Positions 1 to 28,044 of a stretch of 41,358 bases of DNA are shown in pieces. This DNA comes from a virus. The notes below the pieces were generated by a model. The model was not told where the DNA came from, did not search any database, and worked only from the letters and a program-made list of their open reading frames with translations. Both the position numbers and the translations under genes were made by a program. Each line of letters starts with the position of its first letter. The first letter of the stretch is position 1. The DNA lies in IMG/VR virus record IMGVR_UViG_3300025586_000002; one strand, 5' to 3'.

Positions 1-127
1 ATCAAACAACACACTTCTTAAAGGTAATACTTTATGTGGACCACACTTCGCATAATGTAAATCACAAATGTGGACCACACATAGACGGGGGGAGGGTAGG
101 GAGAGTTGAACAGGAGAGGGGGATATA
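1..127. repeat. Terminal redundancy: bases 1-127 are identical to 41232-41358 (direct orientation)
   Basis: Read directly: atcaaacaacacacttctta...caggagagggggatata occurs at both window ends. This implies a complete circular or terminally redundant genome with about 41,231 bp of unique sequence. Confidence 0.95.
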
Positions 128-489: not shown

Positions 490-517
490 ATAATATCAGA
501 ACCGCATATCTTGTCAA
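490..517 (-). promoter_or_regulatory. sigma70-like promoter pointing leftward into the ORF-free junction region
   Basis: Minus strand: TTGACA (517-512), 16-nt spacer, TATTAT (495-490). No ORF lies downstream until the minus-strand terminator at 40762-40785 across the junction. Confidence 0.5.
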
Positions 518-634
518 TAGCAGAAGCTTATTATTCCGCTGTGAGATATTCTTTTTAAAAGCATAAAACTGTTCTTTTTGTGCTTAAAATAAGGTATATC
601 GTAAGCATTTTCGGCGTTTTAAAGTTGACAACAT

Positions 635-663
635 TTGACATCTGCCAGCGGACAAGTTATACT
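635..663 (+). promoter_or_regulatory. sigma70-like promoter heading the plus-strand gene block
   Basis: TTGACA (635-640), 17-nt spacer, TATACT (658-663). A second TTGACA lies at 625-630. The first ATG (671) sits about 8 nt after the -10, so the message would be nearly leaderless. Confidence 0.7.
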
Positions 664-670
664 TGCACAA

Positions 671-865
671 ATGCAAAAGACTCATAAACTATTTAGAAAA
701 ATAAAAATACACACTTTAGACATAGGGCTTATTAAACTTAGCTCGTTTGTTTTTGGAATGGCTACGGTTTTAATCTTTCCATCTTTGCTTGGACTAAGGA
801 CTGACACACTTATCTTGGTTGGACTTATAGCTGCTATTCATCCTATTATAGTGTGGTTCAAGTGA
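671..865 (+). CDS. small hydrophobic protein (64 aa from the ATG at 671; the ORF track starts it at a TTG at 635)
   Basis: In-frame ATG directly after the promoter. Two hydrophobic stretches (SSFVFGMATVLIFPSLLGL, LILVGLIAAIHPIIVWF). Confidence 0.4.
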   Translation: MQKTHKLFRKIKIHTLDIGLIKLSSFVFGMATVLIFPSLLGLRTDTLILVGLIAAIHPIIVWFK

Positions 866-1251
866 TGGCTAAAGGAAGAACAACAGAAAAAAGAATAGAA
901 GCATTGTTTAAGGAGTTCATGGAGAGGGCTACTTCTGGTGAGAAGATGAACATGTATCAGTATCAGCTGGATAAAGGATATTCTCATTCTTCTGCTAAAG
1001 CATATAAGTTAGCAGGAACAAAGTCTTGGTTAAAGTGTCTTGATAAGATAGACGACTCTGCTCTGGCTAATCGCCTTGTAGATATTTCTAAAGGTGGAAC
1101 CGACCAAAACTCTATTCGTGCGATACAAGAACTTTTTAAGCTTAAAGGAAGATACCCAAAAGAAGGTAGGGGGATAGGTATTAAAGACGAAATACTAGAA
1201 CTTTTTGAAGAAGGCGACTACGAAGAGCAAGAACCAAAACAACTAAAATAA
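865..1251 (+). CDS. hypothetical protein with an acidic C-terminal tail; possible small terminase subunit by position only
   Basis: ATG at 865 overlaps the upstream stop. It is the first sizeable gene of the packaging/structural operon. No diagnostic motif recognised. Confidence 0.35.
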   Translation: MAKGRTTEKRIEALFKEFMERATSGEKMNMYQYQLDKGYSHSSAKAYKLAGTKSWLKCLDKIDDSALANRLVDISKGGTDQNSIRAIQELFKLKGRYPKEGRGIGIKDEILELFEEGDYEEQEPKQLK

Positions 1252-1267
1252 ACATTATAGACAAATT

Positions 1268-2287
1268 ATGAAAGAATATATGCCAGGGCAAACAACTAAA
1301 AAAGAGGTTTTATTGATTACGGGTGGTGCAGGCTTTGTCGGCTCTCATATGGTAGAGGGGGTGTTAAAGAACACTGACTGGGATATTATTATATTAGACA
1401 GACTTGATTTGTCTGGAAACTTACATCGTTTATTAGACATTGACATCTGGGAAAAAGAAAAGAACAGAGTTAGTTTTTTATGGTGGGATTTAAAATCTGC
1501 ATTGAATGTGCCGATTAAAGCAGACTATGTATGGCATTTAGCCGCATCAAGCCATGTAGACCGTTCAATAGAAGACCCTTGGTTATTTGCGATGGACAAT
1601 GTAATTGGAACTGTTAATCTTTTACAAGCCTGCCGAGAGATGAATCCAAAAAGAATTATTTATTTCAGTACGGATGAAGTGTTCGGAACAGCACCAGACG
1701 GGGTAGACTACAAAGAATGGGATAGATATAACTCAGGTAATCCGTACTCTGCATCAAAGGCGGGGGGAGAAGAGTTTGCATTAGCGTTTGCTAACACATA
1801 CAAGTTGCCGATTATAGTGACACACTCGATGAACATCTTCGGCGAAAGACAACATCCAGAGAAGTTTATACCTTTAGTTATTAAGTGTGCGTTGAAAGGA
1901 GAGAAGGTGTTTATTCACGCTTCAGAAGATAAAAAGAGAGCAGGACAAAGACATTACTTACACGCAAGAAATATATGTGCCGCACTTTTATTCTTAACAG
2001 AGAATGGTAAGTGTTTAGACGGTTCAGGAAAACAAGGTAAATATAACATAGTGGGGGAGGAGGAAGTAGACAACCTTACATTAGCAAAGATGATTGCCGA
2101 TATACTTGGTAAGAAGTTAGAATATGAAATGGTGGATTTTCATTCCAGCAGACCAGGTCATGATTTACGATATAGTTTATCTGGAGAGTTATTAGAAAGC
2201 GAAGGATTTTCATATCCAAAGAGTTTTAGAAGTAGCTTAGAGAAGGTAGTGCAATGGTATCTTTATCGTCAAATTTGGCTGGAATAG
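1268..2287 (+). CDS. NAD-dependent NDP-sugar 4,6-dehydratase/epimerase (extended SDR, RmlB-like)
   Basis: Rossmann motif GGAGFVGSH. Also HLAASSHVDRSIEDP, STDEVFG, catalytic YSASK and HPEKFIP, all characteristic of dTDP-glucose 4,6-dehydratase-type enzymes. Confidence 0.75.
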   Translation: MKEYMPGQTTKKEVLLITGGAGFVGSHMVEGVLKNTDWDIIILDRLDLSGNLHRLLDIDIWEKEKNRVSFLWWDLKSALNVPIKADYVWHLAASSHVDRSIEDPWLFAMDNVIGTVNLLQACREMNPKRIIYFSTDEVFGTAPDGVDYKEWDRYNSGNPYSASKAGGEEFALAFANTYKLPIIVTHSMNIFGERQHPEKFIPLVIKCALKGEKVFIHASEDKKRAGQRHYLHARNICAALLFLTENGKCLDGSGKQGKYNIVGEEEVDNLTLAKMIADILGKKLEYEMVDFHSSRPGHDLRYSLSGELLESEGFSYPKSFRSSLEKVVQWYLYRQIWLE

Positions 2288-2290
2288 AAT

Positions 2291-3169
2291 ATGGATTTAG
2301 TATCTTGTGTCCATATAGAGACAACAGAAAGCTTTAATAATGGATTAGAGACCTTTGAAGGTAATTTATACATCACAGATGACTCTTGTGGTAAGTATAA
2401 ATACCCTTTTGAGGTTTTAGATTACAGAGACTTTCCGCTTTTTAAGTATTTACACAAGTCTTCTGCGTCAAAAAACTATGCTCTTTACAAATCTAAAGCA
2501 GATATAGTCTTTATTATTGACTCAGATTGTGTGATTGAACCAGATTTTCAAGATAAACATCTTGATGCACTGGACACAGAAGGTTGTTTGTGGGATAATC
2601 CTTTAGAAAACACAGGATTTTATCCAAGAGGTTTTCCTTATTCAGCAAGAGACAAGAGAGTTGTCGCAAATGTAGGTCTTTGGACAAATGTACTTGACAT
2701 AAATGGTGCGGATAGAAGTAAAAACGAGCCAAACAAACCAGAAATAACTGGAACTCGTGTATCAACTTCTTTTGTTCCATTTTCTGGTATGAATGTTGCT
2801 GTTAGAAGAGAAGCAATACCAGCATTATTCTTTCTACCGAACATAGGAAATTTTAAAAGACACGATGACATATTTGGCGGATACATATTTCAATCAATAG
2901 TAAAGAAAAAAGGAGATTGTATTACTTACGGGGAACCGTTTGTTAAACACGAAACCTTTATTATTTCAGAAGAAGATGCCGAAGACGAATTAGAGATGAA
3001 CGAGTATCAAGATAAGTTCTGTCAAGTAGTAGATACTGCTATTGCAAAGATAAAACCTACCACTTACGCAGATATGTACAAGCAGTTTGTAAGAAAAGTC
3101 AAGTTTAGTGGAAGATTTAAAGGATTTAATAAACCTATAAGAATATGGAGCAACTTATTTCGTGGGTAG
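2291..3169 (+). CDS. GT75 / reversibly-glycosylated-polypeptide (RGP, UDP-arabinopyranose mutase)-like protein
   Basis: IDSDCVI (DxD), RGFPYSARD, NVGLWTNVLDINGAD, FSGMNVAVRRE and RHDDIFGGY parallel the plant RGP blocks DDDCF, RGYPFSLR, SHGLWLNIPDYDA, CGMNLAFDRE and RYDDMWAG (recalled from memory). Confidence 0.5.
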   Translation: MDLVSCVHIETTESFNNGLETFEGNLYITDDSCGKYKYPFEVLDYRDFPLFKYLHKSSASKNYALYKSKADIVFIIDSDCVIEPDFQDKHLDALDTEGCLWDNPLENTGFYPRGFPYSARDKRVVANVGLWTNVLDINGADRSKNEPNKPEITGTRVSTSFVPFSGMNVAVRREAIPALFFLPNIGNFKRHDDIFGGYIFQSIVKKKGDCITYGEPFVKHETFIISEEDAEDELEMNEYQDKFCQVVDTAIAKIKPTTYADMYKQFVRKVKFSGRFKGFNKPIRIWSNLFRG

Positions 3170-3855
3170 TATGTACATATAACCGAACTCCACTAACAGA
3201 ACAGTTTATGGACCACAACCTGGCAAGACTTGGAACAACAAGACCAGAGTTAATATGGATAGACAATAGTTCAACAGATGGCGTGGAGAGACTATGGGAT
3301 AAGTATAACCCAGACATAATCATTAAAAGACCAAACGATTGCCTTAGCAAGTCAAAGAACGCCGCTTACGCTGTTTGTAGAGGAGACTGGATTATAGATT
3401 TAGAAAATGATTTCTTAATGCCAGATAATTGGTTGCCAGAAATGTTAGAATATGGCAAAGCGATTGAAGGCACAGGTATAATGGCAACAATGGTTGAGAG
3501 GTGGGATGCAATTTTAACATTAGAATACACAACACCAAAGTCAATTATAAATGGAAAGGAAGTTATAGTGTGTAGAGCAATAGGTCCAAGAATCTTCAGT
3601 AGAGAAGTATTCAAGAAGTGTGGATTTTTAATAGAAACATATGGACTTTATGGAGATGAAGATATTGAAATAAGTGATAGAGCCGCAAATGCTGGACTTA
3701 TAAATTATATTATTCCTTCAATAACTGGAATACACGCTGGTAATGGGGAGTGGGATATGGGAGAATATAGAGCAGCAAAAGACGAAGGACTACACCACCC
3801 AAAAGTTAAACTTCCAGAAGGACAACTTTATTTTAATCCATTTGTATGCAGGTAA
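3145..3855 (+). CDS. family-2 (GT-A fold) glycosyltransferase
   Basis: N-terminal ISWVVCTYNR, then IDNSSTDG and a DLEND DxD-like motif. Overlaps the upstream gene by 25 nt. Confidence 0.7.
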   Translation: MEQLISWVVCTYNRTPLTEQFMDHNLARLGTTRPELIWIDNSSTDGVERLWDKYNPDIIIKRPNDCLSKSKNAAYAVCRGDWIIDLENDFLMPDNWLPEMLEYGKAIEGTGIMATMVERWDAILTLEYTTPKSIINGKEVIVCRAIGPRIFSREVFKKCGFLIETYGLYGDEDIEISDRAANAGLINYIIPSITGIHAGNGEWDMGEYRAAKDEGLHHPKVKLPEGQLYFNPFVCR

Positions 3856-4274
3856 TTATTCCAGGAACATTTGATTTATTACACGAAGGACATAAAGAGT
3901 TAATCAGGTTTGCTCTGTTAATTAGTAAAGATATTATAATCACAATTAACGGCGATAAGTTTTCTAAACTTTTAGGAAAGAAAACAAGTCAGACCGAACA
4001 AGAAAGACTTAAAGGATTAAAAGATTTTATTAACTGCCCTGTTTATATTGTAAACTCTGAATCTGAATCTTTAAAAATAGCGATAGACAACGCACCTTGT
4101 TTCAGACTTACAGGAGATGACTGGGATATTAGCAAAACAAGTAAGAGGTGTGGCGTTGATAGAAGTTTTTGGAAAAGAAATAACATCTATCTTATTTATA
4201 AAGACAGAGTTCCCAACATAAGCAGCACAAAATTAAGAAATGCCCAGACCAAAAGTAATACTGTATCCATTTAA
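3846..4274 (+). CDS. cytidylyltransferase-family nucleotidyltransferase (TagD / glycerol-3-phosphate cytidylyltransferase-like)
   Basis: GTFDLLHEGH (HxGH signature) near the N-terminus and ISSTKLR near the C-terminus. Confidence 0.7.
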   Translation: MQVIIPGTFDLLHEGHKELIRFALLISKDIIITINGDKFSKLLGKKTSQTEQERLKGLKDFINCPVYIVNSESESLKIAIDNAPCFRLTGDDWDISKTSKRCGVDRSFWKRNNIYLIYKDRVPNISSTKLRNAQTKSNTVSI

Positions 4275-4806
4275 AGCAGGACCATTAGATGGAAAAAACT
4301 GGAAAGAAACACTTGATACTGGGATAAAAGAACTTAAAGACTTCAACTGGCAACTTGGTTTTGGAACATTGCTTGGAATGGTCAGAGATAAGACAGTAAT
4401 TCCGCACGATTTAGACTTAGACATAGATGTAATGATGGAAGATGAATACAAGCCGAACACAGATGCACTTCATCAAAGTTATTTAACAAAAGGATTTCGT
4501 CTTATTAAGATGCAAGAGTGGGGTGGTTTAATAATGTCGTTAGCCTATATGCACGAAAAGACGAATGTGATATTTGACATCTGTTTCTTTTATGGTATAT
4601 GGGGTGATGATTTTCTACACCTTGGAAGTGACGGAATTGTTATCAGACCGAGATGGACCTTAAAAACTATTAAACTACTTGGATACAACATACCTGAAAG
4701 ATATGATGATTATCTTACAGGAAGATATGATGATTGGAGAACTCCAGTTTCTGGGAAAAAAGATTGGTTTGATTACGCTAATAAATACTTTATAAAATAT
4801 GATTGA
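4240..4806 (+). CDS. LicD-family phosphotransferase (phosphocholine / polyol-phosphate transferase fold)
   Basis: GFGTLLGMVRDKTVIPHDLDLDIDVMM matches the LicD core GTLLGAVRhxGFIPWDDDIDV. Confidence 0.6.
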   Translation: MPRPKVILYPFKAGPLDGKNWKETLDTGIKELKDFNWQLGFGTLLGMVRDKTVIPHDLDLDIDVMMEDEYKPNTDALHQSYLTKGFRLIKMQEWGGLIMSLAYMHEKTNVIFDICFFYGIWGDDFLHLGSDGIVIRPRWTLKTIKLLGYNIPERYDDYLTGRYDDWRTPVSGKKDWFDYANKYFIKYD

Positions 4807-6067
4807 AAAACCAAAAGTAATTAACGATTTAAAACTCCAAGAAAAGATTGGTTGGACTCCACACAGTGGTCAGAAAAAGATTATAGACTGCCACGCAAGA
4901 GAGAAGATTATATGTGCAGGAAGAAGATTTGGGAAAAGTGATACTTGTGCTTATGAGATAGTAAAAGACGCACTTTTAGGAGATAGAAGAATATGGATAG
5001 CCGCACCTTCTTATGAACTTTCTAAAATAGTGTTTGACAGGGTAGTTATATTTCTTTCAAAAGTAATTAGCCCAAGTCATTTCAGAATACAGATGAAACC
5101 ATTTCCAACACTTACGCTGACTAACGGAAGTATTATTGAAGGAAAGTCGTGTGAGGCAAGGTCTGGTATGCTTGGTAGGTCTACTAACTTAGTAGTAATA
5201 GACGAAGCAGCACTTGTAGATGAGAACATCTGGCAACAATATATCAAGCCAACAACACACGAACAAAAAGGTAGAGTTGTTTATATAGGAACACCAAGAG
5301 GATTAAATTGGTTTTATGATAAGTTCCTGGAACTTCAAATAAAACACACAGCGTTTCAATTCAAGACTTCTGACAACCCATTGTTTGACTTAGTAGAATA
5401 TAATAAAGCAAGAGAGAGTCTGCCAGAAAAGGTTTTCGCACAAGAATACGAAGCAGAGTTTTTAACAGAAGCAGGATTAGTTTTTAGAGGAATAGACTTA
5501 ATTGTTGACGATACTTTGGCAGAACCAGTATTGGGAACAGCATATATATTAGGAGTGGACATAGCAAGGCATACAGACTACACAGCTTTGACTGTAATGG
5601 ACAGAACAACCAAGAAGGTAGTTTATCTCGACAGGTTCAAAGAACTTGATTATCCATACCAAAAACAACGCATTTTAACATTATCACAAAAATATAATAA
5701 CGCAAAAATAATAATAGATTCAACGGGCATGGGAGATAGCGTGGCTTCAGACCTAATGCGACAAGCGTTTGTAGAAGAATACCCACTATACAGCCATAAA
5801 GCAAAACAACAACTAATAGATAGACTTATAATCTTTATCGAACAAAGGGTTATAAGGATACCAAATAACGAAATACTTATAAATGAGTTAAAAAAATACG
5901 AGGTAAAAGTTTTAGAAGCGTCTGGAAAGTATAATTATTCAGCACCAAGAAGTGGGCACGATGATATGGTTATATCATTAGCACTAGCAACTTGGGGATT
6001 ACAGCCGAATAAACTATCAGACGTAGAAGAAACAGAAACCATAATAAAGCACAATGACTACGAATAA
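4799..6067 (+). CDS. terL: terminase large subunit
   Basis: Walker A-like AGRRFGKS and Walker B VVIDEAA. C-terminal nuclease acidic motifs GVDIARHTDYTAL and GHDDMVISLALA. The portal gene follows immediately. Confidence 0.9.
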   Translation: MIEKPKVINDLKLQEKIGWTPHSGQKKIIDCHAREKIICAGRRFGKSDTCAYEIVKDALLGDRRIWIAAPSYELSKIVFDRVVIFLSKVISPSHFRIQMKPFPTLTLTNGSIIEGKSCEARSGMLGRSTNLVVIDEAALVDENIWQQYIKPTTHEQKGRVVYIGTPRGLNWFYDKFLELQIKHTAFQFKTSDNPLFDLVEYNKARESLPEKVFAQEYEAEFLTEAGLVFRGIDLIVDDTLAEPVLGTAYILGVDIARHTDYTALTVMDRTTKKVVYLDRFKELDYPYQKQRILTLSQKYNNAKIIIDSTGMGDSVASDLMRQAFVEEYPLYSHKAKQQLIDRLIIFIEQRVIRIPNNEILINELKKYEVKVLEASGKYNYSAPRSGHDDMVISLALATWGLQPNKLSDVEETETIIKHNDYE

Positions 6068-7796
6068 TATATATAAAATCATAGCGGACGAAGTTCAAGA
6101 TTTCAAACAAAATCCAGCTCTTGTTATTGAAGGGTTTGTAAGAAATCAAAAAGAAGTTATTGAAAAAATCATTCGTCTTTATAATTCAAAGTTCAAAGAC
6201 GGAGAGTTTGACAGCGAAGGGTTTAGAAAATACTTCAAGAACATTGTAAAGAACCCTTGCAATTCTTCAACGAAAGCAATTAAGTTCTTACCAGCCGATA
6301 TAATGATTATTCCTGCTGCTGGTCAAGATGACCTTAAAGCGTGGATAATGGATAGAGATTTCAAATACTGGATGAAAGAAAAGCAGTTCGCAAAGATTCT
6401 TAACAGAATGTTTATGGACTTGCCGATTTTTGGTAGTGTAGTTTTGAAACTTGTCGGCGATAATTTACACTTCGTAGACTTGAGAAACTTAATCAATGAA
6501 CAAGCTGCTGATAAACTTAAAGATGCTTCTTATACAATTGAGCAACATTATTACTCGCTTGACGAGATGAGAAAGAAACCTTGGGATAACATTGAGGAAG
6601 CAGTTAAAATGTGGAGAGAAACTAAAAGACCTTATGTAAGAGTGTTAGAAAGATATGGTGAAGTTCCAGAATCAGAGTTCGGCGGAGATGAAAACAAATA
6701 TACTTACGCAAGACATATTGTTTATATGCCAGACACAAGGTATATGGACAGAATTGAAACCAACACAAAAGGTATTATTTTAGACGCTACTAAAATTAAA
6801 AGAGATGAGTTCCCTTACAGAGATTTCCATTTTGAAAAGATACCAGGTGCTTGGCTTGGAATAGGTAGAGTTGAACTTCTATCTGACCCACAATTAAGAA
6901 CTAACGAAATAACAAACTTACGAGTTAAATCTTCTTATGTTGCTGGATTAAACATCTGGCAAACAAGAGATGATAATGTTAAAAAGAATCTTATCAAAGA
7001 TGTTAAAACAGGACAAGTTATTACTGCGATGGACAGAATTGAGAAAGTTCCAACAGAAGAAAGAAACCTGTCAGCATTTATTGAAGAGGAAAGAAGTTGG
7101 GCTGGAAATGCAGACCAAGTAGCATTTAACTATGATGTTATTAGAGGAGAAAGAATGCCAGCAGGAACACCTCTTGGTTCAGCACAATTAGCAGCACAGA
7201 TGATTACTTCATACTTTGAACACATTAGAGAGAACATAGCATCAGATGTTAAAGAGTTAATCTTTAATGATATTATTCCACTGTTTAAAAAGACAGGAGA
7301 ACACTATATCAGACTTGTCGGAGAAGACCTTGATAAATGGCATCAACTTAAAACTAATGCCAGAGCAAATCTTGAACTGTTTAAGTTCCTTGTTCAAAAG
7401 AAAACAATACCTACCTCAATACAATTTGATGTGATGAAGAGTGTAATTAAAGACAAAGTGAAAGCAAGTAAAGATTCACCGCTAATTCCCGCAGAGTTTT
7501 ACAAAGACTTAAAGTATTCATTAGACATTGTTATTACAGGACAAGAAAGAGATTTGAGAGTAGAAGCTGCTAATATGGCAATGATACTTCAAACAATGGT
7601 AGCCGACCCAACAGTATTAACAGACCCAGTAAAGAGAAAGATATTTAGCAAACAACTTGAAGCAGTAGGAATTAGTATCAACGATATTGAACCAGAAGAA
7701 GCACAATCACAACAAACACCAATAGAGAAAAGAACACAACAAGGTGGTGGTATTTCAGCACCTAGTATGCCTCAAGTAATGCAACCTGGACTATGA
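6054..7796 (+). CDS. portal protein
   Basis: 580-aa ORF directly downstream of, and overlapping, terL and upstream of scaffold and capsid. Size and order are typical. Confidence 0.75.
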   Translation: MTTNNIYKIIADEVQDFKQNPALVIEGFVRNQKEVIEKIIRLYNSKFKDGEFDSEGFRKYFKNIVKNPCNSSTKAIKFLPADIMIIPAAGQDDLKAWIMDRDFKYWMKEKQFAKILNRMFMDLPIFGSVVLKLVGDNLHFVDLRNLINEQAADKLKDASYTIEQHYYSLDEMRKKPWDNIEEAVKMWRETKRPYVRVLERYGEVPESEFGGDENKYTYARHIVYMPDTRYMDRIETNTKGIILDATKIKRDEFPYRDFHFEKIPGAWLGIGRVELLSDPQLRTNEITNLRVKSSYVAGLNIWQTRDDNVKKNLIKDVKTGQVITAMDRIEKVPTEERNLSAFIEEERSWAGNADQVAFNYDVIRGERMPAGTPLGSAQLAAQMITSYFEHIRENIASDVKELIFNDIIPLFKKTGEHYIRLVGEDLDKWHQLKTNARANLELFKFLVQKKTIPTSIQFDVMKSVIKDKVKASKDSPLIPAEFYKDLKYSLDIVITGQERDLRVEAANMAMILQTMVADPTVLTDPVKRKIFSKQLEAVGISINDIEPEEAQSQQTPIEKRTQQGGGISAPSMPQVMQPGL

Positions 7797-8588: not shown

Positions 8589-9488
8589 ATGGCTACAACT
8601 TTAACAAAAGCAAATTTCGCTGGCTCAGGAGTATCTGCTATGGTTCCTTCCTTTTGGTCGGACATGATGCAGGTTCCTTTGAGAAAAGGTCTAGTTGCTG
8701 AGGCTGTTGCTAACAACCAATTTCGTGCAAAATTAACTAAAGGTGATACAATTCACTTTCCTTATATTGCCGAAACGGCTGCTTCAGCACACACAGCAGG
8801 TGGAACTTTCGCACCGCAAGATATATCTTCTACAGATGAAAATCTAGTAGTTGACACAGCATATCTTGTTGCTAACTACATCGAAGATTTTGAAGAACTA
8901 CAAGCTAACTACTCTTACATGCTTGACCTTGCAGACAATGCAGGATACAAATTAAGAGATGTTATTGATACAGCAGTTTTACTTGAAACTACTGCCGCTG
9001 CATCAGGACTGTTCTACGAATCAACAGGTGTACCAATTGCTCATGCTGCAACAAATCTGGCTTCTGGTGCTATTACTGCGACAACTGCAAACATTATCAA
9101 TGTGTTCGCAAACGCAAGATTAGCTCTTAGAAAACAAAATGTTGAGGAAGCAGGAGATTGGTGCGTGGTTACATCCCCAGAGGTTGCAATGTTGATTGAA
9201 CTTGTTGGAACTGAAAAAGGATTCAGCGTGGCTGATGCGACACTTCGCAACGGTTATGCAGGAGGATTCCTTGGTTTCCAAGTTTATATCTCTAACAACC
9301 TACCAGATGGTTACAACTATTTTGGAAGAAAGGGTATGATACACTCAGTTATCCAAGCCTCTCCTAATGTTCAAATCAAAGATGTTGCGAATAAACTCGG
9401 TAAAAACCTTGTTTCTTCAATACTATTTGGTGTGAAAGCATTTTTGAGAAGCAAATCAAGATACCTAGTAGTAAAAATTACTACATAG
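8589..9488 (+). CDS. major capsid protein
   Basis: 299-aa ORF after the scaffold gene, followed by a strong stem-loop. Order and size fit. No motif-level proof. Confidence 0.7.
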   Translation: MATTLTKANFAGSGVSAMVPSFWSDMMQVPLRKGLVAEAVANNQFRAKLTKGDTIHFPYIAETAASAHTAGGTFAPQDISSTDENLVVDTAYLVANYIEDFEELQANYSYMLDLADNAGYKLRDVIDTAVLLETTAAASGLFYESTGVPIAHAATNLASGAITATTANIINVFANARLALRKQNVEEAGDWCVVTSPEVAMLIELVGTEKGFSVADATLRNGYAGGFLGFQVYISNNLPDGYNYFGRKGMIHSVIQASPNVQIKDVANKLGKNLVSSILFGVKAFLRSKSRYLVVKITT

Positions 9489-9548: not shown

Positions 9549-10223
9549 ATGACATTAGCAGAACTTCAAGCCGATACACTTTTTTTGGCAAACACTGTGT
9601 CCGCACAATATGCAGACATTGCTATTAAAAGAAATCTTAATATACATTATGATATTGCTGTTTTAGACATATGGGATTCTGCGGCTGATTGGCAGTTTGA
9701 CGAAGGAATAGATGAACTACCGATAGGAACTGCAGCATTAGTAGCAGAACAAGATAACTATGCTATACCGACAGACGCAAGAGAGGTTGAAAGAGTAGAA
9801 GTAAAAGATTCAAACGGAAAGTATATCAAATTAGTTTCAATAGATTCTGCCAACATAAAAGATAGTCTTGAGCAGTTTAGAGGGAATAGTGGAACACCAG
9901 CTTATTACGATATAATAGGCAGGTCTTTAATTCTTTACCCAACACCAAGTTATAGTTCAGACGAAGGACTTTTAGTAGCAGTAAGTAAATCAGTTACACA
10001 ACTATCAGAAAGCACAGACGAGCCAAGAATTGAAAGAGAGTTTCACAGAATAATTAGTCTTGGTGCGGCATTAGACTGGTGTATAGCAAAAGGTAATCCA
10101 ACAAAGCGTGCCGAAATAGAGAGAGAACTTCTAAAACTTCAAATAAAATTAAGAAAGTTTTATGCAAACAGAAACAAAGACTACGACACCAGGATTAAAC
10201 CTGCAATGCAAAACTACGAATAA
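9549..10223 (+). CDS. putative head-to-tail adaptor/connector protein
   Basis: Position between the capsid and tail genes, and size comparable to podoviral adaptor proteins. Inference only. Confidence 0.35.
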   Translation: MTLAELQADTLFLANTVSAQYADIAIKRNLNIHYDIAVLDIWDSAADWQFDEGIDELPIGTAALVAEQDNYAIPTDAREVERVEVKDSNGKYIKLVSIDSANIKDSLEQFRGNSGTPAYYDIIGRSLILYPTPSYSSDEGLLVAVSKSVTQLSESTDEPRIEREFHRIISLGAALDWCIAKGNPTKRAEIERELLKLQIKLRKFYANRNKDYDTRIKPAMQNYE

Positions 10224-11307
10224 CATAAGTTGCACATATATTTTAAGCAACTTTACAGAGTTTCAGGTTGGTTGTTTTCAGGTAAGGATAAATAATCCCT
10301 TCATTCATTTGAATAGATTAGGACACAAGATGGAATATGTTGTTATGGGGCAACACGAATATACAGAGATAGATTCTGACATTGTAATGTATTCCAGAGC
10401 ATATACACAAGACCCATTTCGTTCTTTATGGAAACATAAATCAGACGGAAGAAAGATAGTTTATGAAATGGACGATGATATTTGGAACATACCAGAACTG
10501 AACCCAGCACACGATGGCTATGGCAAGAAGATGAAAAGTGATATTAGCGGATTGTGTAAAGAAGCAGACTTAGTTATTGTAAGCACAGAAGCATTGAAAG
10601 AAGTTGTTATAGAAGAAACAGGACAAAAGAATATAGTAGTTATTCCAAACGCTTTAGACTTAGACAAGTTTAAACTACGACCGAACAAAGAAGGATTAAG
10701 AATAGGCTGGACAGGAGGTGCAAACCATTATGAAGATTTAGACATTGTTTTACAAGCAATACACGACCTTCAAGAAGAATACGATTTTGAGTTCATTATA
10801 CAAGGATTAACCGCTGGACCGTGGGATGCTGACGCTTATTCAACAAACCTTATTTTAGAAAGAGGAGAACCGAAAGAAGCAATGCTTGCAATGAACACAC
10901 AGAAGTTAAACATTTATAAGAAGTTAAGAAAGTTAAAAAACTTCAAACATATTCCCTTTTACCCGCCAGAAATGTATGCTTCTGTATTAAAAGAAATAGA
11001 CTTAGACATTGGACTAATTCCAATAGTAGGACACAAGTTTGATAAATCAAAATCAATTATTAAGTATTTAGAATATACCGCAACAGGAACAGCAGTAATA
11101 GCATCAGAAGAAGACCCTTATAGAGATGTTATCTATACTGTTAAAAATAAATATAAGTATTGGTATAACGGAATTAAAGAGTTAATAGAAAATAAGGAGT
11201 TAAGAAATCAACTCGCTAAACAACAACACAAACAACTCTTTCCAAAATATGATATGAAAGAAGTAGTTAAACAATACGAAAAAGCATTATGTGGACTTAT
11301 AAAGTAA
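10162..11307 (+). CDS. GT-B fold (GT1/GT4-like) glycosyltransferase
   Basis: RIGWTGGANHYEDL and KSKSIIKYLEYTATGTAVIASE (E-x7-E-type block). The segment VRINNPFIHLNRLGHKMEYVV looks like the N-terminal YRxxxPxxxLxxxGHEV element. That favours the ATG at 10162 (62-nt overlap with the upstream gene) over the ATG at 10330. Confidence 0.6.
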   Translation: MQTETKTTTPGLNLQCKTTNNISCTYILSNFTEFQVGCFQVRINNPFIHLNRLGHKMEYVVMGQHEYTEIDSDIVMYSRAYTQDPFRSLWKHKSDGRKIVYEMDDDIWNIPELNPAHDGYGKKMKSDISGLCKEADLVIVSTEALKEVVIEETGQKNIVVIPNALDLDKFKLRPNKEGLRIGWTGGANHYEDLDIVLQAIHDLQEEYDFEFIIQGLTAGPWDADAYSTNLILERGEPKEAMLAMNTQKLNIYKKLRKLKNFKHIPFYPPEMYASVLKEIDLDIGLIPIVGHKFDKSKSIIKYLEYTATGTAVIASEEDPYRDVIYTVKNKYKYWYNGIKELIENKELRNQLAKQQHKQLFPKYDMKEVVKQYEKALCGLIK

Positions 11308-11512: not shown

Positions 11513-14410
11513 ATGGCAACAGATAAAAAAATAACTGACTTCACAGAGCTAACACCAGTTGGAAATAATGACTGGGTAGCTGTTGTTGATACAGCAACAG
11601 ACGAAACTAAAAAAGCAAAAAGGTCTGAGTTCAAAGGAGATACAGGTTTAACTGGAGATACTGGATTGACTGGAGATACGGGAGCACAGGGTATTCAGGG
11701 TATTCAAGGTTTAACAGGAGATACTGGAGACACAGGATTAACTGGCGACACAGGAGCAACAGGAGCTTCTATTACATCCGCAGCGTTTGTTGTTGATGAT
11801 ATGGTATTTACAAAAGATGATACCAATACAGTTACATTAACAAATGCTAAAATAGATTTAAAGGGAGATACAGGAGCACAAGGTATTCAAGGTGTAACTG
11901 GTGATACGGGAGCACAGGGCATACAGGGCATTCAAGGTATTCAAGGTGAAATAGGAACTGCTGCTACCGCTGATGCTGGAACTACTACTACTGGAGTACC
12001 TGGAACATCTGCTGCAGTTGTCAACTCAGGTTCTACAAGTGCTGCTATATTTGATTTTACAATTCCAAGAGGTGATGTTGGTGCGACTGGTGCGACTGGA
12101 GACCAAGGAATACAAGGAATACAAGGCATACAAGGAATTACTGGTGACACTGGGGATACTGGTGCTACTGGTGAACAGGGTATTCAAGGAATACAGGGTG
12201 AAACTGGAACAGGAATTACAGAAGAAACAATAGGATTTACGGCAACTGGTGGAACAACACCTAAAACTTTAACAGTAGATGATAACTTTGTAGTTTCTAC
12301 TCAATTATCTGCTATAGGTGCTAATACCGCAAAGACAACAGAAAGCACAACCGTTACTTCTCCTTTAGTTAAAACAACTTATGATATTTCTATTCCTGCT
12401 GCTACAAACGCAGTTGCAGGACACGCTACAGTAGCACATATTACGGCTATTGAAGCAAATACAGCAAAGAATACTAATGTTTCCACAGCTTTAAGTGTAG
12501 GAACAGTAGGAGTAAATACGGTAGCAATCACTTCAGATGGTGGAGCAGATGATGTCACTCTTCCAGCAGCAACAGTTTCTGCCGCAGGAATGCTCACAAC
12601 GGCTAAATGGGGTGAAATAGTTGCAAATACAAATAAAGTAACTAATGCTACACATACAGGAGACGCTACAGGTTCAGGGGCACTAACTGTTGTGGCTATC
12701 AATGCTACAAATATGGCAGGGTTAGCAACTGGCATATTAAAAAATACAACAACAACAGGAGTTCCAAGTATTGCAATAAACTCTGACTTACCAGCTATGA
12801 GTGCAACAGTAGGAGGAGCAGTACCAACACCACCAAATAATACAACAACCTTTCTTAGAGGCGATGGAACTTTCGCAGCACCAGCTGGTGGTGGCGATAT
12901 GGTTCTTGCAGATATTCAATCTGTTACTGGATTAAAAACTTTTGATACAATTAAACTTGCGATTAAAGGTTCTTCAACTGGTTCAACAGCTATTGCTTCG
13001 GCTAACGCTTCAGCTACTTCTTACACAGCAACTTTACAAGCTGTTACTGGAACTTTAGCTTATCAAGCTGATGTAACTTATATCGGCACGACTTCTGTGG
13101 CTCTTAATCGGACTTCTGCTGCTTTAACTTTGGCTGGAATTACATTAACAACTCCTAATATTGGAACACCAAGTGCAGGTGTTTTAACTTCTTGCACAGG
13201 ATTACCTTACAGTGGTTTAGCAAATGGAACAGACGGTAATTTAATTACTTGGGATGCCGCTGGTGTAATAGCTGTTGTAGCAACAGGAGATGCTACACAG
13301 GTTTTAACTTCTAATGGTGTTGGTACTGCTCCAACTTTTCAAGCTGCTGCTGGTGGAGGTGGTGCTGTAGATTGGATAGTTAAAAATAATACATACACGT
13401 CAGAGAATGGAGATGGTATTTTAGCAGATACTTCAGGAAATACTTGGACTTTAACTTTACCAGTAATACCAGATGTAGGATATGTTGTTGGAATTTCAGA
13501 TAGCACAAGTTCTTTTTCTACTAATAATTTAACTATTGCAAGGAATGGAAGTAAAATAATGGGAGAATTGGAAAATTTAGTTGTAGACATAAACGATGCT
13601 TCATTCTTACTTGTTTATACAGGTGATTCTACTGGTTGGAAATTAGATACTTTTTTTCCAGTTGGCAGTCAATTAGTTAAAGCAACGGGTGCAGAAATAG
13701 ACACGGGAACAGACGATGCTAAGTTTGCTACTCCCAAAGCAATAGAAGATAGTGGTTTAGCAAAAACTTCTGAAATACCCGTTAAAGCAACAGCTGCAGA
13801 ATTAGATACAGGAGAAGATGATGCAAAGTTCGCTACAGCATTAGCAATTAAAGATTCACATAATGTTCCAAGTGTAGTTCCAAGCACAGCAGGAAAGGTT
13901 CTTACTTCTGATGGAACAGATTGGATAAGTGCAGCTATTGGAGCAGCAGATTTACCAGCAGCTTTAACACCAACAACAATAGATTTAGGTCACGCTTCAG
14001 ATACAACCCTTTCAAGAAGTGCCGCTGGAGTATTAGCAGTTGAGGGTGTAGTAGTGCCGACAATAAGTTCTGTAAGCACTTTTACAAATAAGAGAGTAAC
14101 TATCAGATATGATGGAACTACTTCTCATGCTACACCAACAATAAACACAGATAATGTAGATATGTATGGATTAACAGCACAAGCAGAAGCGATTACTTCA
14201 ATGACCACTAATTTATCTGGAACACCTACTCAAGGACAGAAACTTTGGATTCAAATAACTGGAACTGCTGCAAGAGCAATAAGTTGGGGGGCATCTTTTG
14301 AAGCATCAACGGTCGCACTTCCAACAACAACGGTAACCACTGCACGATTAGATGTCGGATTTGTCTGGAATACAGTAACAAGTAAATGGCGATGTATCGC
14401 TGTAGCATAA
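11513..14410 (+). CDS. tail fibre protein with collagen-like triple-helix tracts
   Basis: The N-terminus [15 protein letters not shown] resembles a fibre anchor. There are three Gly-X-Y tracts ([10 protein letters not shown]..., [10 protein letters not shown]...). Two copies of the motif ExDxGxDDAKFATxxAI occur near residues 725-780. Confidence 0.85.
11636..12215 (+). repeat. collagen-like Gly-X-Y triplet-repeat tracts (three blocks) inside the fibre gene
   Basis: Reiterated ggWgaYacWgg / ggYatWcaRgg 9-nt units. They also create spurious long ORFs in other frames and on the opposite strand. Confidence 0.85.
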
Positions 14411-27651: not shown

Positions 27652-28044
27652 CTATTTCTTTAGTTCTTCGTATAGATAACCCATTGCGTTAAACAATATA
27701 CCATTAAGAGCATCTTCTTTTGTTTCTCTACCTTTATAACCTCTGTGAATTAACCAGAGGTCTAAGAAATGTCTCCACATAGATTTAATATAAGCGTCTC
27801 GATTTATACCTTTTTGCCAGTTATCAGATGCACGATAGTTGCCGTCAGATTGTATTCTGTTTTTGTGCATGTACTCGCAGTAGGACTTAATAACGATTGG
27901 GCTTAAAAACCCTTCTGGGTCGTGTTTTCCTTCTTCTGAGTCCCTGATGGCTCCGCTTGGGAATTTTCTTATTTTTTTCATATTATTTAGTTCCTCTTTT
28001 TTAGTTGTACAATGATTTAACCCCGTACCTGTTTGAAAATCCAT
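27652..28044 (-). CDS. dATP/dGTP diphosphohydrolase N-terminal-domain-like (DUF5664-type) protein
   Basis: FPSGAIRDSEEGKHDPEGFLSP, SDNWQKGI and SMWRHF match the family pattern FSTGAxRDxxxGK..SP...NWxKG...RH (recalled from memory). An alternative start exists at 27981. Confidence 0.5.
   Translation of the reverse strand: MDFQTGTGLNHCTTKKEELNNMKKIRKFPSGAIRDSEEGKHDPEGFLSPIVIKSYCEYMHKNRIQSDGNYRASDNWQKGINRDAYIKSMWRHFLDLWLIHRGYKGRETKEDALNGILFNAMGYLYEELKK

What the first reader, a model, noticed from the sequence alone, without database searches (positions are those of the whole stretch)
1268..4806. Five-gene nucleotide-sugar / phospho-alcohol transfer cassette wedged between the terS-like gene and terL
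Five consecutive, overlapping or abutting plus-strand genes sit inside the packaging/structural operon, directly upstream of terL. They are an RmlB-like NDP-sugar dehydratase, a GT75/RGP-like protein, a GT2 glycosyltransferase, a TagD-like cytidylyltransferase and a LicD-family phosphotransferase. They share the SD-less start context of the core phage genes. Cytidylyltransferase plus LicD is the standard logic for making a CDP-activated alcohol (glycerol, ribitol or choline) and transferring its phosphate ester onto a glycan, as in teichoic acids. The dehydratase plus glycosyltransferases would supply and attach a modified sugar. Co-transcription with capsid, portal and fibre genes suggests the substrate is the virion itself, for example the Ser/Thr-rich or collagen-like fibre or the capsid. 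That would extend known virion glycosylation toward a teichoic-acid-like phospho-glycan coat. Host-envelope remodelling is the alternative.
Basis: partly seen in the sequence, partly recalled or inferred. Interest (0 to 1): 0.78.

Follow-up and report, generated by a model that had tools for sequence, protein, structure and literature searches.

The report
Phage head-operon sugar-coating gene island
An uncultured 41-kb tailed phage carries, inside its head-assembly operon, six soluble enzymes that can build a glycan with an unusual ring-contracted sugar and a phosphate-linked alcohol. Comparison with relatives suggests, without proving, that the glycan goes onto the virus particle rather than onto the host.

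Summary
Five overlapping or abutting + strand genes at 1268-4806 lie between a small terS-position gene and terL. All five family calls hold:
- an RmlB-type NDP-hexose 4,6-dehydratase
- a GT75/RGP protein
- a GT2
- a TagD-like cytidylyltransferase
- a minimal LicD/FKRP-type phosphotransferase

Three refinements:
- The GT75 protein keeps the catalytic set of the metal-dependent NDP-pyranose-to-furanose mutases (MtdL, plant UAM). It is probably a furanose-donor maker, not a transferase.
- A sixth gene belongs to the system: a GT-B glycosyltransferase at 10162-11307, beside the capsid and adaptor genes. It is contiguous with the cassette in one relative. It is present in 9 of 9 relatives with a filled terS|terL slot and absent in 4 of 4 with an empty slot.
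- In about 70 related metagenomic loci the slot is either empty or holds a different glycan-gene set (methyltransferases, aminotransferase, TOD1/MUCI70 transferases, even PEP mutase plus LicD).

No membrane, flippase, polymerase or DNA-hydroxymethylase genes exist in this complete genome. Capsid proteins of GT-B-positive phages are specifically Ser/Thr-enriched.

Best reading, at about 45%, is virion protein glycosylation with a variable "serotype" cassette. Host-envelope remodelling remains a serious rival. It is a new variant of a known kind.

The parts
635..663 (+). Sigma-70-like promoter candidate at the head of the rightward late operon. A divergent partner lies at 490-517 on the - strand.
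   Evidence: TTGACA-17-TATACT, 11 of 12 matches. This is a consensus match only, and the host's promoter type is unknown.
865..1251 (+). Small terS-position protein (128 aa from the ATG; the ORF list starts it at GTG 853).
   Evidence: No significant family or PDB match. Its homologues lie immediately upstream of terL in the cassette-less relatives L019-L023, L064, L067, L075, L076 and L079.
1268..2287 (+). RmlB-type NDP-hexose 4,6-dehydratase (extended SDR).
   Evidence: Pfam Epimerase 9e-44. TIGR01181 scores 2.4e-69, which is below its equivalog cut-off. It aligns over its full length to solved dTDP-glucose 4,6-dehydratases (2hun, 7.5e-49). GGAGFVG, SHVDRS, STDEVFG, NPYSASK and RPGHDLRY are conserved across phage homologues. 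Population variants show 8-9 synonymous and 0 non-synonymous changes.
2291..3169 (+). GT75 family protein, a probable Mn-dependent NDP-pyranose/furanose mutase.
   Evidence: Pfam RGP 8.5e-10. The best PDB sequence hits are MtdL and rice UAM. The AF2 model has pLDDT 95.4. Foldseek's top 7 hits are MtdL/UAM at 1e-16 to 2e-14, and the next GT-A scores 3e-5. D77, D79, R113, D136, R190, D193 and H220 are invariant in 52 homologues. They match MtdL D109, D111, R159, D195, R257, D260 and H287.
3145..3855 (+). Soluble GT2 (GT-A) glycosyltransferase, the variable-slot member.
   Evidence: Pfam Glycos_transf_2 1.3e-13. No TM segment. It is 68% identical to the GT2 of L012, whose capsid protein is only 35% identical, which points to horizontal exchange.
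3846..4274 (+). TagD-like cytidylyltransferase (HxGH class).
   Evidence: Pfam CTP_transf_like 2.6e-12. The best PDB hits are glycerol-3-phosphate cytidylyltransferases 2b7l/1coz at 3-4e-6. The HEGH, GDDW and ISST motifs can be read in the sequence. The substrate is not determined.
4240..4806 (+). Minimal LicD/FKRP-type phospho-alcohol transferase (a stand-alone catalytic domain).
   Evidence: Pfam LicD 7.4e-6 on the N-terminal motif. The 1.84-billion representative library holds 596 homologues, mostly 170-210 aa. The family profile matches the FKRP catalytic domain 284-434 at 1.2e-14. L45, G46, R49, D61 and D113 are invariant, and D57 and D59 nearly so. The AF2 model has pLDDT 96, and Foldseek's top 13 hits are FKRP.
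4799..6067 (+). Large terminase, overlapping the LicD gene by 8 nt.
   Evidence: Pfam Terminase_6N/6C; phrog_2 1.3e-49.
8589..9488 (+). Major capsid protein, a candidate glycan acceptor.
   Evidence: phrog_267 3.5e-36. The Ser+Thr fraction is 0.131-0.173 in 19 GT-B-positive phages and 0.089-0.122 in 4 GT-B-negative ones (p=0.0023). Portal, adaptor, terL and scaffold show no such difference. The excess sits at residues ~121-180.
10162..11307 (+). GT-B (GT4-like) glycosyltransferase, the conserved sixth member of the system.
   Evidence: phrog_7162 1.3e-36, with weak Glycos_transf_1/Glyco_transf_4 hits. It is contiguous with the cassette genes in L012. It co-occurs with a filled terS|terL slot in 9 of 9 loci and is absent in 4 of 4 cassette-less loci. 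Its identity tracks portal identity (Spearman 0.84, n=17).
11513..14410 (+). Collagen-like tail fibre with G-X-T repeats, an alternative candidate acceptor.
   Evidence: Pfam Collagen 1.7e-18 and tail-fibre PHROGs. [16 protein letters not shown] repeats and 25% Ser/Thr.

Best explanation
The five genes are the variable part of a six-gene, wholly cytoplasmic glycan-building system. It is hard-wired into the late head-morphogenesis operon of a lytic-looking 41.2-kb podophage with an SU10-type portal and adaptor.

**Proposed mechanism**
1. The RmlB-type SDR converts a host NDP-glucose to an NDP-4-keto-6-deoxyhexose. This is inferred from motifs.
2. After a C4 reduction that the phage does not encode, the GT75 enzyme contracts the pyranose ring and gives an NDP-(6-deoxy)hexofuranose donor. 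The catalytic residues are shown to be conserved. The substrate is inferred.
3. The conserved GT-B next to the capsid and adaptor genes starts the glycan on a virion protein. The acceptor is most likely Ser/Thr of the major capsid protein, or else the G-X-T collagen-like fibre. The soluble GT2 extends the glycan. This step is inferred.
4. The TagD-like enzyme makes a CDP-alcohol, with CDP-glycerol as first guess. The mini-LicD transfers the phospho-alcohol onto a sugar hydroxyl as a terminal cap. The family logic is shown. The substrate is inferred.

Across the lineage the GT-B is inherited vertically. The terS|terL cargo is swapped like an O-antigen locus, which would give virions different surface glycans.
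For: **Enzyme identities:**

**One system**
- In L012 all six homologues are contiguous between capsid and adaptor.
- The GT-B is present in 9 of 9 loci with a filled terS|terL slot and absent in cassette-less L019, L064, L075 and L076.

**Tied to virion genes**
- In roughly 70 related loci, sugar genes sit only in slots of the head module: upstream of terS, terS|terL, terL|portal, capsid|adaptor, and after the adaptor.
- A Pfam census of 110 non-redundant cargo ORFs is dominated by SDR, GT2, GT4, TOD1/MUCI70, RGP, methyltransferase, CT, DegT, LicD and PEP mutase families.
- The genes overlap each other and terL, and there is no internal terminator.

**Phage-intrinsic acceptor**
- GT-B identity tracks portal identity (rho 0.84), whereas the GT2 is exchanged horizontally.
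- The capsid protein, but not portal, adaptor, terL or scaffold, is Ser/Thr-enriched in GT-B-positive phages.
- The fibre has Thr-rich collagen repeats.

**Cytoplasmic chemistry only**
- None of the six proteins has a TM segment.
- The closed genome has no flippase, polymerase, GT-C or initiating phosphoglycosyltransferase.

**6-deoxy-furanose route:** L080/L111 carry an RmlD-like 4-ketoreductase (3.9e-64) directly upstream of GT75.

**Precedent:** mycobacteriophages glycosylate capsid and tail-tube proteins with their own transferases (Freeman et al. 2023, as summarised in PMC12363180).
Against: - No direct evidence exists that any virion protein is modified. The phage is uncultured and its host is unknown.
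- The Ser/Thr contrast rests on only four GT-B-negative capsid proteins and is not corrected for phylogeny.
- Soluble GT-A/GT-B and LicD enzymes also act on lipid-linked or wall-polymer intermediates at the inner face of the membrane, as TarP and pneumococcal LicD do (own knowledge). So the absence of TM segments does not exclude a host target.
- The pathway has a gap: the genome encodes no 4-ketoreductase.
- GT75 residues equivalent to MtdL S228/Q229 and loop-A R289/H292 are not conserved.
- The GT-B has only weak similarity to characterised enzymes, none of them protein O-glycosyltransferases.
Confidence: 0.45

Rival explanations
1. Host-envelope remodelling. The enzymes act on host lipid-linked or wall-bound glycans (O-antigen, capsule, teichoic-acid-like polymer, S-layer glycan). 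They add a deoxy/furanose sugar and a phospho-alcohol. The effect would be to mask the receptor, block superinfection, or stop progeny from re-adsorbing to debris.
For: - The CT + LicD logic is classically a cell-wall decoration pathway, and LicD-like transferases sit in cell-surface phosphonoglycan neighbourhoods (PMC6697681).
- A licD + ispD pair inserted in some Flandersviridae phages was interpreted as host teichoic-acid modification (PMC8008677).
- Soluble phage transferases that modify wall polymers are known, for example TarP, which appears among the weaker GT-A fold matches.
- Cargo hypervariability could mirror the variety of host glycans.
Against: - In every relative the genes lie in the late structural operon, translationally coupled to terL, and never in an early or lysogeny module.
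- No integrase was found, so there is no prophage state in which conversion would pay.
- No flippase, GT-C or polymerase is present, and none of the six proteins has a TM segment.
- The GT-B co-diverges with the portal and sits beside the capsid gene in all sub-lineages. That is unexpected if its acceptor were a variable host glycan.
- The capsid-specific Ser/Thr excess has no explanation under this model.
Confidence: 0.3
2. The genes supply nucleotide sugars only, as an auxiliary metabolic function. The phage boosts or diverts host NDP-sugar and CDP-alcohol pools, for example to sustain host glycan synthesis or to make a small glycosylated metabolite. No dedicated phage acceptor exists.
For: - The characterised bacterial GT75 enzymes MtdL and Hyg20 work in nucleoside-antibiotic pathways (PMC9937993).
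- The missing 4-ketoreductase implies dependence on host enzymes.
- SDR homologues are more conserved (50-68%) than the structural proteins.
Against: Three transferases (GT2, GT-B, LicD) accompany the precursor enzymes, so a defined acceptor is implied. Strict residence in the head module and co-occurrence with the GT-B are not expected for a metabolic booster.
Confidence: 0.1
3. DNA hypermodification. The transferases glycosylate or phospho-alkylate phage DNA bases as it is packaged, which would explain the position next to the terminase.
For: The cassette is adjacent to terS and terL. Phage DNA glycosylation by phage transferases is well known in T-even phages (own knowledge).
Against: - The closed 41.2-kb genome has no thymidylate-synthase-like hydroxymethylase, no DNA polymerase and no nucleotide-modifying kinase. 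The - strand genes scanned (all but one of those of 90 aa or more) gave Erf, two exonucleases, NinG, a lysozyme and a HAD-like hit, the rest had no family hit, and no unassigned - strand ORF exceeds 160 aa.
- In relatives the same gene kinds sit between capsid and adaptor, or after the adaptor, away from the terminase.
Confidence: 0.03

Closest known systems
Mycobacteriophage virion glycosylation (Che8, Corndog, Myrna; Freeman et al. 2023, Cell Host Microbe, known here only through PMC12363180)
   Same: Phage-encoded cytoplasmic glycosyltransferases are proposed to modify capsid or tail proteins. The genes are dispensable for the basic virion plan and vary between relatives.
   Different: - Glycosylation is shown by MS there and only inferred here.
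- This system adds sugar-nucleotide tailoring (4,6-dehydratase, GT75 mutase) and a CDP-alcohol/LicD arm.
- It sits inside the terminase-portal-capsid block.
- It belongs to an unrelated, uncultured, low-GC podophage lineage.
Giant-virus glycan machinery (Mimivirus R141 UDP-glucose 4,6-dehydratase and the fibril-glycosylation cluster; chlorovirus capsid glycosylation) - own knowledge; R141 is my reading of PDB 6vlo, which one search lists only as a putative dTDP-D-glucose 4,6-dehydratase
   Same: A virus-encoded 4,6-dehydratase feeds virus-encoded transferases that decorate virion surface proteins, including collagen-like or fibre proteins. Relatives here also carry DegT aminotransferases and methyltransferases.
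   Different: Those are eukaryotic giant viruses with large clusters. They have no GT75 mutase and no LicD-type phospho-transfer.
GT75 NDP-pyranose mutases: MtdL, Hyg20, plant UAM/RGP (PMC9937993)
   Same: The fold is shared (Foldseek 1e-16; TM-score 0.80 to rice UAM2). So are the DxD motif, the Arg nucleophile, the Arg/Asp pair and the His metal ligand.
   Different: - Only 17-18% identity, and about 80 residues shorter than MtdL.
- The S228/Q229 and loop-A residues differ.
- It is paired with an RmlB-type rather than a GDP-mannose-type dehydratase.
- It is phage-borne, and the 61 homologues found include no characterised protein; all seven whose genomic context was examined lie in phage contigs.
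LicD/FKRP/fukutin phospho-alcohol transferases with TagD-type cytidylyltransferase
   Same: The protein has an NTase-fold catalytic domain with a DxD plus a third Asp. It is paired with a CTP-dependent activating enzyme, which is the standard CDP-X to glycan-O-P-X logic.
   Different: The stand-alone catalytic domain is 188 aa, against about 270 aa for LicD or the two-domain FKRP. No TagF/TagB polymerase is present. The acceptor and the alcohol are unknown.
licD + ispD insertion in 'Flandersviridae' Bacteroides phages (Benler et al. 2021, PMC8008677)
   Same: A phage-borne cytidylyltransferase + LicD pair, present in only some members of a lineage.
   Different: There the CT is IspD/TarI-type, the pair sits in the replication module, and no sugar-tailoring genes or transferases accompany it. 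The authors proposed a host teichoic-acid target.
Serotype-converting phage systems (GtrABC, Oac) and prophage TarP
   Same: Phage transferases that change a surface glycan.
   Different: Those are lysogenic-conversion genes with membrane components (GtrA, GtrB, GT-C) or are expressed from a prophage. None of that is present here.
BclA exosporium glycosylation in Bacillus anthracis (own knowledge)
   Same: A collagen-like G-X-T repeat protein is O-glycosylated on Thr with deoxyhexose-containing glycans, using an RmlB-dependent pathway encoded nearby.
   Different: It is a bacterial spore protein. No mutase or LicD is involved.

Membership tests
dTDP-glucose 4,6-dehydratase (RmlB, extended SDR) | Rossmann GxxGxxG, catalytic YxxxK, and the Thr-Asp-Glu dehydratase triad | tested here: met
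   GGAGFVG, NPYSASK and STDEVFG are present and conserved in 11 of 12 phage homologues, along with SHVDRS and RPGHDLRY. The protein aligns over its full length to solved RmlB structures.
dTDP-glucose 4,6-dehydratase (RmlB, extended SDR) | Score above the NCBIfam equivalog cut-off (TIGR01181, 365.1 bits) | tested here: not met
   233.9 bits. The protein is RmlB-like but not an equivalog. Its nucleotide specificity (dTDP versus UDP) is open.
dTDP-glucose 4,6-dehydratase (RmlB, extended SDR) | Catalytic conversion of NDP-glucose to NDP-4-keto-6-deoxyglucose | not testable with these tools
   Needs an enzyme assay.
GT75 (RGP / NDP-pyranose mutase) | Pfam PF03214 above the gathering score, and a GT75 fold | tested here: met
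   38.8 bits against a cut-off of 23.8. Foldseek's top 7 hits are MtdL/UAM at 1e-16 to 2e-14, and the next GT-A scores 3e-5.
GT75 (RGP / NDP-pyranose mutase) | DxD, Arg nucleophile (MtdL R159), D195, R257, D260 and the His287 metal ligand | tested here: met
   D77, D79, R113, D136, R190, D193 and H220 are invariant in 52 sequences. They were mapped through the HMMER alignment and PMC9937993.
GT75 (RGP / NDP-pyranose mutase) | Sugar and diphosphate contacts S228/Q229 and loop-A R289/H292 of MtdL | tested here: not met
   The aligned residues are G/M and non-basic residues. This suggests a different NDP-sugar specificity.
GT75 (RGP / NDP-pyranose mutase) | Mutase or Arg auto-glycosylation activity | not testable with these tools
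   Needs HPLC/MS assays with NDP-sugars and Mn2+.
GT2 glycosyltransferase | PF00535 above the gathering score, and a GT-A N-terminal domain with acidic motifs | tested here: met
   51.6 bits against 23.3. The DNSSTD and DLEND motifs can be read in the sequence.
Glycerol-3-phosphate cytidylyltransferase (TagD) | HxGH nucleotidyltransferase fold (PF01467) | tested here: met
   47.5 bits against 21. HEGH, GDDW and ISST are present, and the best PDB hits are TagD 2b7l/1coz.
Glycerol-3-phosphate cytidylyltransferase (TagD) | Equivalog score (TIGR01518, 165.4 bits), i.e. glycerol-3-phosphate specificity | tested here: not met
   33.8 bits. In relative L021 a homologous CT sits with PEP mutase/Ppd, so the substrate may differ.
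LicD / FKRP phosphotransferase | NTase-fold catalytic domain with GTLLG...DxD and a third carboxylate | tested here: met
   Pfam LicD scores 26.6 bits against 22.6. The profile matches FKRP at 1.2e-14 over profile positions 25-171 of 194. G46, R49, D61 and D113 are invariant, and D57 and D59 nearly so. Foldseek's top 13 hits are FKRP.
LicD / FKRP phosphotransferase | Transfer of a phospho-alcohol from a CDP-alcohol to a glycan | not testable with these tools
   Other NTase-fold enzymes (LnuA, MenT) are the next fold matches. The function is inferred from the pairing with the CT.
Teichoic-acid polymer pathway (TagD/TagB/TagF) | CDP-glycerol glycerophosphotransferase (TagB/TagF family) for priming and polymerisation | tested here: not met
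   No such family appeared in Pfam or PHROG scans of nearly all window ORFs of 90 aa or more in a closed genome.
Serotype-converting Gtr-type systems | Membrane flippase GtrA, membrane-anchored GtrB and a GT-C transferase | tested here: not met
   None of the six proteins has a TM segment, and the window has no such families.
Phage virion glycosylation systems | Glycan covalently attached to a virion structural protein | not testable with these tools
   Only indirect support is available: position, co-inheritance and the capsid Ser/Thr excess.
Small terminase subunit | Sequence or profile match to a terS family | tested here: inconclusive
   No significant Pfam, PHROG or PDB hit. Size and conserved position directly upstream of terL in relatives support the label.

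The most novel reading that the evidence does not exclude
A widespread lineage of uncultured podophages (soda-lake, polar-lake and digester samples, judging by the contig names) coats its capsid and/or collagen-like fibres with phage-made glycans. A conserved capsid-linked GT-B starts the glycan. A hypervariable, O-antigen-like cargo slot in the head operon finishes it. In this phage the finish is a furanose sugar made by a non-flavin GT75 mutase plus a LicD-added phospho-alcohol. In a relative it is a phosphonate (PEP mutase pathway). Virions would thus come in glycan 'serotypes'.
Probability: 0.35. Interest if true: 0.85.

Novelty: new variant of a known kind. Interest (0 to 1): 0.66.

Why it matters
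Phage virion glycosylation has been shown only in mycobacteriophages. If the reading here is right, the phenomenon extends to environmental podophages and to richer chemistry: furanose sugars, phospho-alcohol caps and phosphonate caps.

It would also reveal a modular 'serotype island' in the most conserved part of a phage genome. That bears on phage antigenicity, particle stability, adhesion to mucus or particles, and escape from grazers or host lectin-like defences.

Independently of the target, two points stand:
- This is a phage-only clade of GT75 mutases, a family with only two characterised bacterial members.
- This is a large family of minimal LicD domains.

Both are attractive as compact enzymes for glyco-engineering.

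Tried and rejected
- **Cultured relatives.** Megablast of 12 kb against cultured phages found nothing. tblastn of the LicD-like protein against phages found nothing. terL is at most 33% identical to any isolate.
- **First relatives scan.** A single-sequence terL scan of viral contigs gave one useless locus. An alignment query was needed.
- **LicD homologues.** The word-indexed homologue search found only 4. The exhaustive HMMER search was needed.
- **terS identity.** Profile searches gave only non-significant HTH-like hits.
- **Host.** The species-genome collection yielded only mis-binned MAG fragments from unrelated phyla. No tRNA genes were found.
- **GT-B function.** The PDB profile search gave only weak GT4 hits. 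Its cultured-phage relatives (phi92 gp164, 27% identity) sit in an uncharacterised four-transferase cluster outside the structural genes.
- **GT2.** The weak match to the flagellin glycosyltransferase GmaR (E 0.066) is not significant and was not used.
- **DNA modification.** Rejected for lack of any hydroxymethylase or polymerase in a closed genome.
- **Literature.** Freeman et al. 2023 could not be read. A search for phage GT75 found no relevant paper.

Full report
**1. Observation**

The ORF list shows five + strand ORFs at the stated coordinates:
- 1268-2287 (339 aa)
- 2291-3169 (292 aa)
- 3145-3855 (236 aa)
- 3846-4274 (142 aa)
- 4240-4806 (188 aa)

They are followed by terL (4799-6067), an SU10-type portal (6054-7796), the capsid protein (8589-9488) and an SU10-type adaptor (9549-10223). 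Successive genes are 3 nt apart or overlap by 25, 10, 35 and 8 nt. No + strand terminator-like site lies between 1 and 9270.

Only 8 of 64 genes have an SD-like tetramer. GC content in the cassette (0.34-0.38) matches the genome.

The first 127 nt equal the last 127 nt. The window is therefore a closed genome of 41,231 bp, and absences are meaningful. The identical phage occurs in at least 32 sample blocks. In its natural variants SDR shows 8-9 synonymous and 0 non-synonymous changes, and GT75 shows 4 and 0. The genes are real and under purifying selection.

**2. What each protein is**

*ORF1* aligns over its full length with solved dTDP-glucose 4,6-dehydratases (2hun, 7.5e-49). It keeps GGAGFVG, SHVDRS, STDEVFG, NPYSASK and RPGHDLRY, which are conserved in 11 of 12 phage homologues. 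It scores below the RmlB equivalog cut-off (233.9 against 365.1 bits). I call it an RmlB-type NDP-hexose 4,6-dehydratase of unknown nucleotide preference.

*ORF2* is a GT75 protein.
- It passes Pfam RGP.
- Its best PDB sequence matches are MtdL and rice UDP-arabinopyranose mutase.
- An AlphaFold model (pLDDT 95.4) matches MtdL/UAM at 1e-16 to 2e-14, while the next GT-A scores 3e-5.
- The MtdL paper (PMC9937993) defines the catalytic set: DxD, Arg159 nucleophile, Asp195, Arg257, Asp260, His287.
- The equivalents D77, D79, R113, D136, R190, D193 and H220 are invariant in an alignment of 52 homologues.
- Residues that contact the sugar and diphosphate in MtdL (S228/Q229 and loop A) differ, so the substrate is probably different.

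GT75 enzymes are the only metal-dependent NDP-pyranose/furanose mutases. The likely role is making a furanose donor.

*ORF3* is a soluble GT2.

*ORF4* is an HxGH cytidylyltransferase closest to TagD. It scores far below the TagD equivalog cut-off.

*ORF5* is a minimal LicD.
- Pfam sees only the N-terminal motif.
- Exhaustive HMMER found 596 relatives, mostly 170-210 aa.
- Their profile matches the FKRP catalytic domain at 1.2e-14.
- The carboxylate triad is conserved.
- The model (pLDDT 96) hits FKRP first.

**3. The system is larger and modular**

A GT-B glycosyltransferase (10162-11307; phrog_7162, 1.3e-36) lies between the adaptor and the collagen-like fibre. In the 58-kb relative L012, homologues of all six genes are contiguous between capsid and adaptor: GT-B, LicD-like, CT, two small ORFs, SDR, GT75, GT2.

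Relatives were collected in three ways:
- through GT75 homologues
- through a terL alignment in viral contigs
- through a portal alignment in metagenomes

They show the following.

*The terS|terL slot is filled or empty.* The terS-position gene abuts terL in L019/59, L020-L023, L064, L067, L075, L076 and L079. The slot is filled in:

| Locus | Cargo between terS and terL |
|---|---|
| window | SDR, GT75, GT2, CT, LicD |
| L008 | SDR, GT75, 169-aa ORF, CT, LicD |
| L010, L071 | SDR, GT75, small ORF, TOD1/MUCI70-like transferase |
| L017 | SDR, 205-aa ORF, methyltransferase, GT2, TOD1/MUCI70 |
| L054 | SDR, methyltransferase, 126-aa ORF |
| L070 | 137-aa ORF, 58-aa ORF, SDR |
| L077/78 | 198-aa ORF, TOD1/MUCI70 |

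*Other slots of the head module also carry sugar genes:*
- Upstream of terS in L023: a glycosyltransferase and a methyltransferase.
- terL|portal in L080/L111: SDR, an RmlD-like reductase at 3.9e-64, GT75, two ORFs.
- Capsid|adaptor in L021/L024: a glycosyltransferase, a GT2::LicD fusion, PEP mutase, a split phosphonopyruvate decarboxylase, CT and PIG-L. This is a phosphonate decoration pathway.
- After the capsid gene in L083-L098: GT-B plus GT2, a DegT aminotransferase and others.

*Cargo census.* A Pfam census of 110 non-redundant cargo ORFs is dominated by SDR, GT2, GT4, TOD1/MUCI70, RGP, methyltransferase, CT, DegT, LicD and PEP mutase families. The rest includes homing endonucleases.

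*The GT-B is the constant.* It is present in 9 of 9 loci with a filled terS|terL slot where the downstream region is visible. It is absent after the adaptor in cassette-less L019, L064, L075 and L076. Its identity to the window tracks portal identity (Spearman 0.84, n=17). By contrast the GT2 is 68% identical in L012, whose capsid protein is 35% identical.

More distant GT75 homologues (L014-L016) also lie in phage genomes, with SDR and several GT2 genes upstream of a portal.

**4. Target**

None of the six proteins has a TM segment. The closed genome shows no flippase, polymerase, GT-C, initiating phosphoglycosyltransferase or TagF/TagB. It shows no integrase, DNA polymerase or thymidylate-synthase-like enzyme either. 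The - strand genes that match a family are Erf, two exonucleases, NinG, a lysozyme and a HAD-like protein; the others matched nothing.

The chemistry is therefore cytoplasmic and late.

The fibre has [16 protein letters not shown]-type collagen repeats with Thr in the Y position and 25% Ser/Thr. This recalls O-glycosylated BclA (own knowledge).

A test I devised compares Ser+Thr content between groups. It is 0.131-0.173 in the capsid proteins of 19 GT-B-positive phages and 0.089-0.122 in 4 GT-B-negative ones (Mann-Whitney p=0.0023). Portal, adaptor, terL and scaffold show no difference. The excess lies at capsid residues ~121-180.

The sample is small and not corrected for phylogeny. Even so, the signal is specific. 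It fits the GT-B always lying within one or two genes of the capsid gene.

**5. Mechanism and its gaps**

- *Shown:* family membership, conservation of catalytic residues, operon structure, and the co-occurrence patterns.
- *Inferred:* the dehydratase feeds a 6-deoxyhexose pathway, and GT75 contracts the ring. The GT-B starts the glycan on capsid or fibre Ser/Thr and the GT2 extends it. CT and LicD add a terminal phospho-alcohol.
- *Gap:* ring contraction needs a C4 hydroxyl, yet the genome lacks a 4-ketoreductase. L080/L111 have one beside GT75, which supports the route. For this phage it implies a host enzyme, a bifunctional SDR, or independent substrates.
- The alcohol (glycerol, choline, ethanolamine or aminoethylphosphonate) is undetermined.

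**6. Rivals**

Host-envelope remodelling is the main rival, and I give it about 0.3. The CT + LicD logic is classically cell-wall chemistry (PMC6697681). A licD + ispD pair in Flandersviridae was interpreted that way (PMC8008677). Against it stand the strictly late, head-module location, the absence of a lysogeny module, co-divergence of the GT-B with the portal, and the capsid-specific Ser/Thr signal.

A pure precursor-supply role (about 0.1) does not explain three transferases.

DNA modification (about 0.03) lacks every enabling enzyme. It is also contradicted by relatives that place the genes away from the terminase.

**7. Comparison and novelty**

The closest systems are:
- mycobacteriophage virion glycosylation (known here through PMC12363180)
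- giant-virus fibril and capsid glycosylation
- GT75 mutases
- LicD/FKRP
- the Flandersviridae licD insertion

I found no paper describing phage GT75 enzymes. Cultured phages have almost none: partial 30% matches in Synechococcus phage S-T4 and a 26% match in a megaphage. BFVD holds two auto-annotated examples.

The finding is a new variant of a known kind. It is phage-encoded glycosylation with new chemistry, in a new genomic setting, with an O-antigen-like modular architecture. The target is unproven and the phage is uncultured, which limits confidence.

Noticed in passing
window 1-127 and 41232-41358: The two ends are identical over 127 nt, the usual assembly overlap of a circular or circularly permuted genome. 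The unique length is 41,231 bp, so the window is a complete phage genome.
   Followed up: yes
L021 6275-11097 (also L024): A relative (terL 46% identical) carries, between capsid and adaptor, a glycosyltransferase, a GT2::LicD fusion, PEP mutase, a split phosphonopyruvate decarboxylase, a cytidylyltransferase and a PIG-L deacetylase. This is a phage-borne phosphonate (aminoethylphosphonate-type) decoration pathway in a structural operon.
   Followed up: partly
window 8589-9488 (capsid residues ~121-180) and relatives: The capsid Ser+Thr content separates GT-B-positive phages (0.131-0.173, n=19) from GT-B-negative ones (0.089-0.122, n=4). Portal, adaptor, terL and scaffold show no such separation.
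   Followed up: partly
L080 1205-3922 and L111 1366-4114: A third insertion slot, between terL and portal, holds an epimerase-like SDR, an RmlD-like 4-ketoreductase (3.9e-64) and GT75. The reductase missing from the window sits next to the mutase here.
   Followed up: partly
window 3145-3855 versus L012 5642-6355: The GT2 is 68% identical between two phages whose capsid proteins are only 35% identical. This indicates recent horizontal exchange of the transferase module.
   Followed up: partly
L010 8346-8903, L017 3575-4156, L018 1781-2362, L071 3017-3613, L077 1045-1626: The gene just upstream of terL is a TOD1/MUCI70-like transferase in these relatives, where the window and L008 have the mini-LicD. 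These look like alternative 'last-step' enzymes in the same position.
   Followed up: partly
L012 3068-3679, and one unidentified member of the cargo set A5: HNH and LAGLIDADG homing endonucleases occur among the head-module cargo. They may help the cassettes move.
   Followed up: no
window 27652-28044 (-): A 130-aa protein weakly matches the N-terminal domain of dATP/dGTP diphosphohydrolase (E 3.3e-4, below the Pfam cut-off). No other sign of base replacement was seen.
   Followed up: no
window 32097-32405 (-): A 102-aa HAD-like protein matches phrog_1238, annotated 'phosphoheptose isomerase' (2e-18), with weak PNKP-phosphatase hits. It could be a sugar-phosphate phosphatase, but it lies in the early region.
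   Followed up: no
window 490-663: Two near-consensus sigma-70-like promoters (11 of 12 matches) diverge here, one towards the late operon and one towards the - strand genes. This sits oddly with the SD-less, Bacteroidota-like start contexts.
   Followed up: no
L118 (phage phi92, record positions 102200-105376): The nearest cultured-phage relatives of the GT-B (27% identical) lie in an uncharacterised cluster of four glycosyltransferases (gp163-166) in phi92-like E. coli phages, next to the endolysin and DNA polymerase genes.
   Followed up: partly
window 26057-27217 (+) and 26398-27129 (-): A protease-like gene (phrog_20754, 1.9e-27) contains a 243-aa antisense ORF. The antisense ORF is probably spurious.
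   Followed up: no
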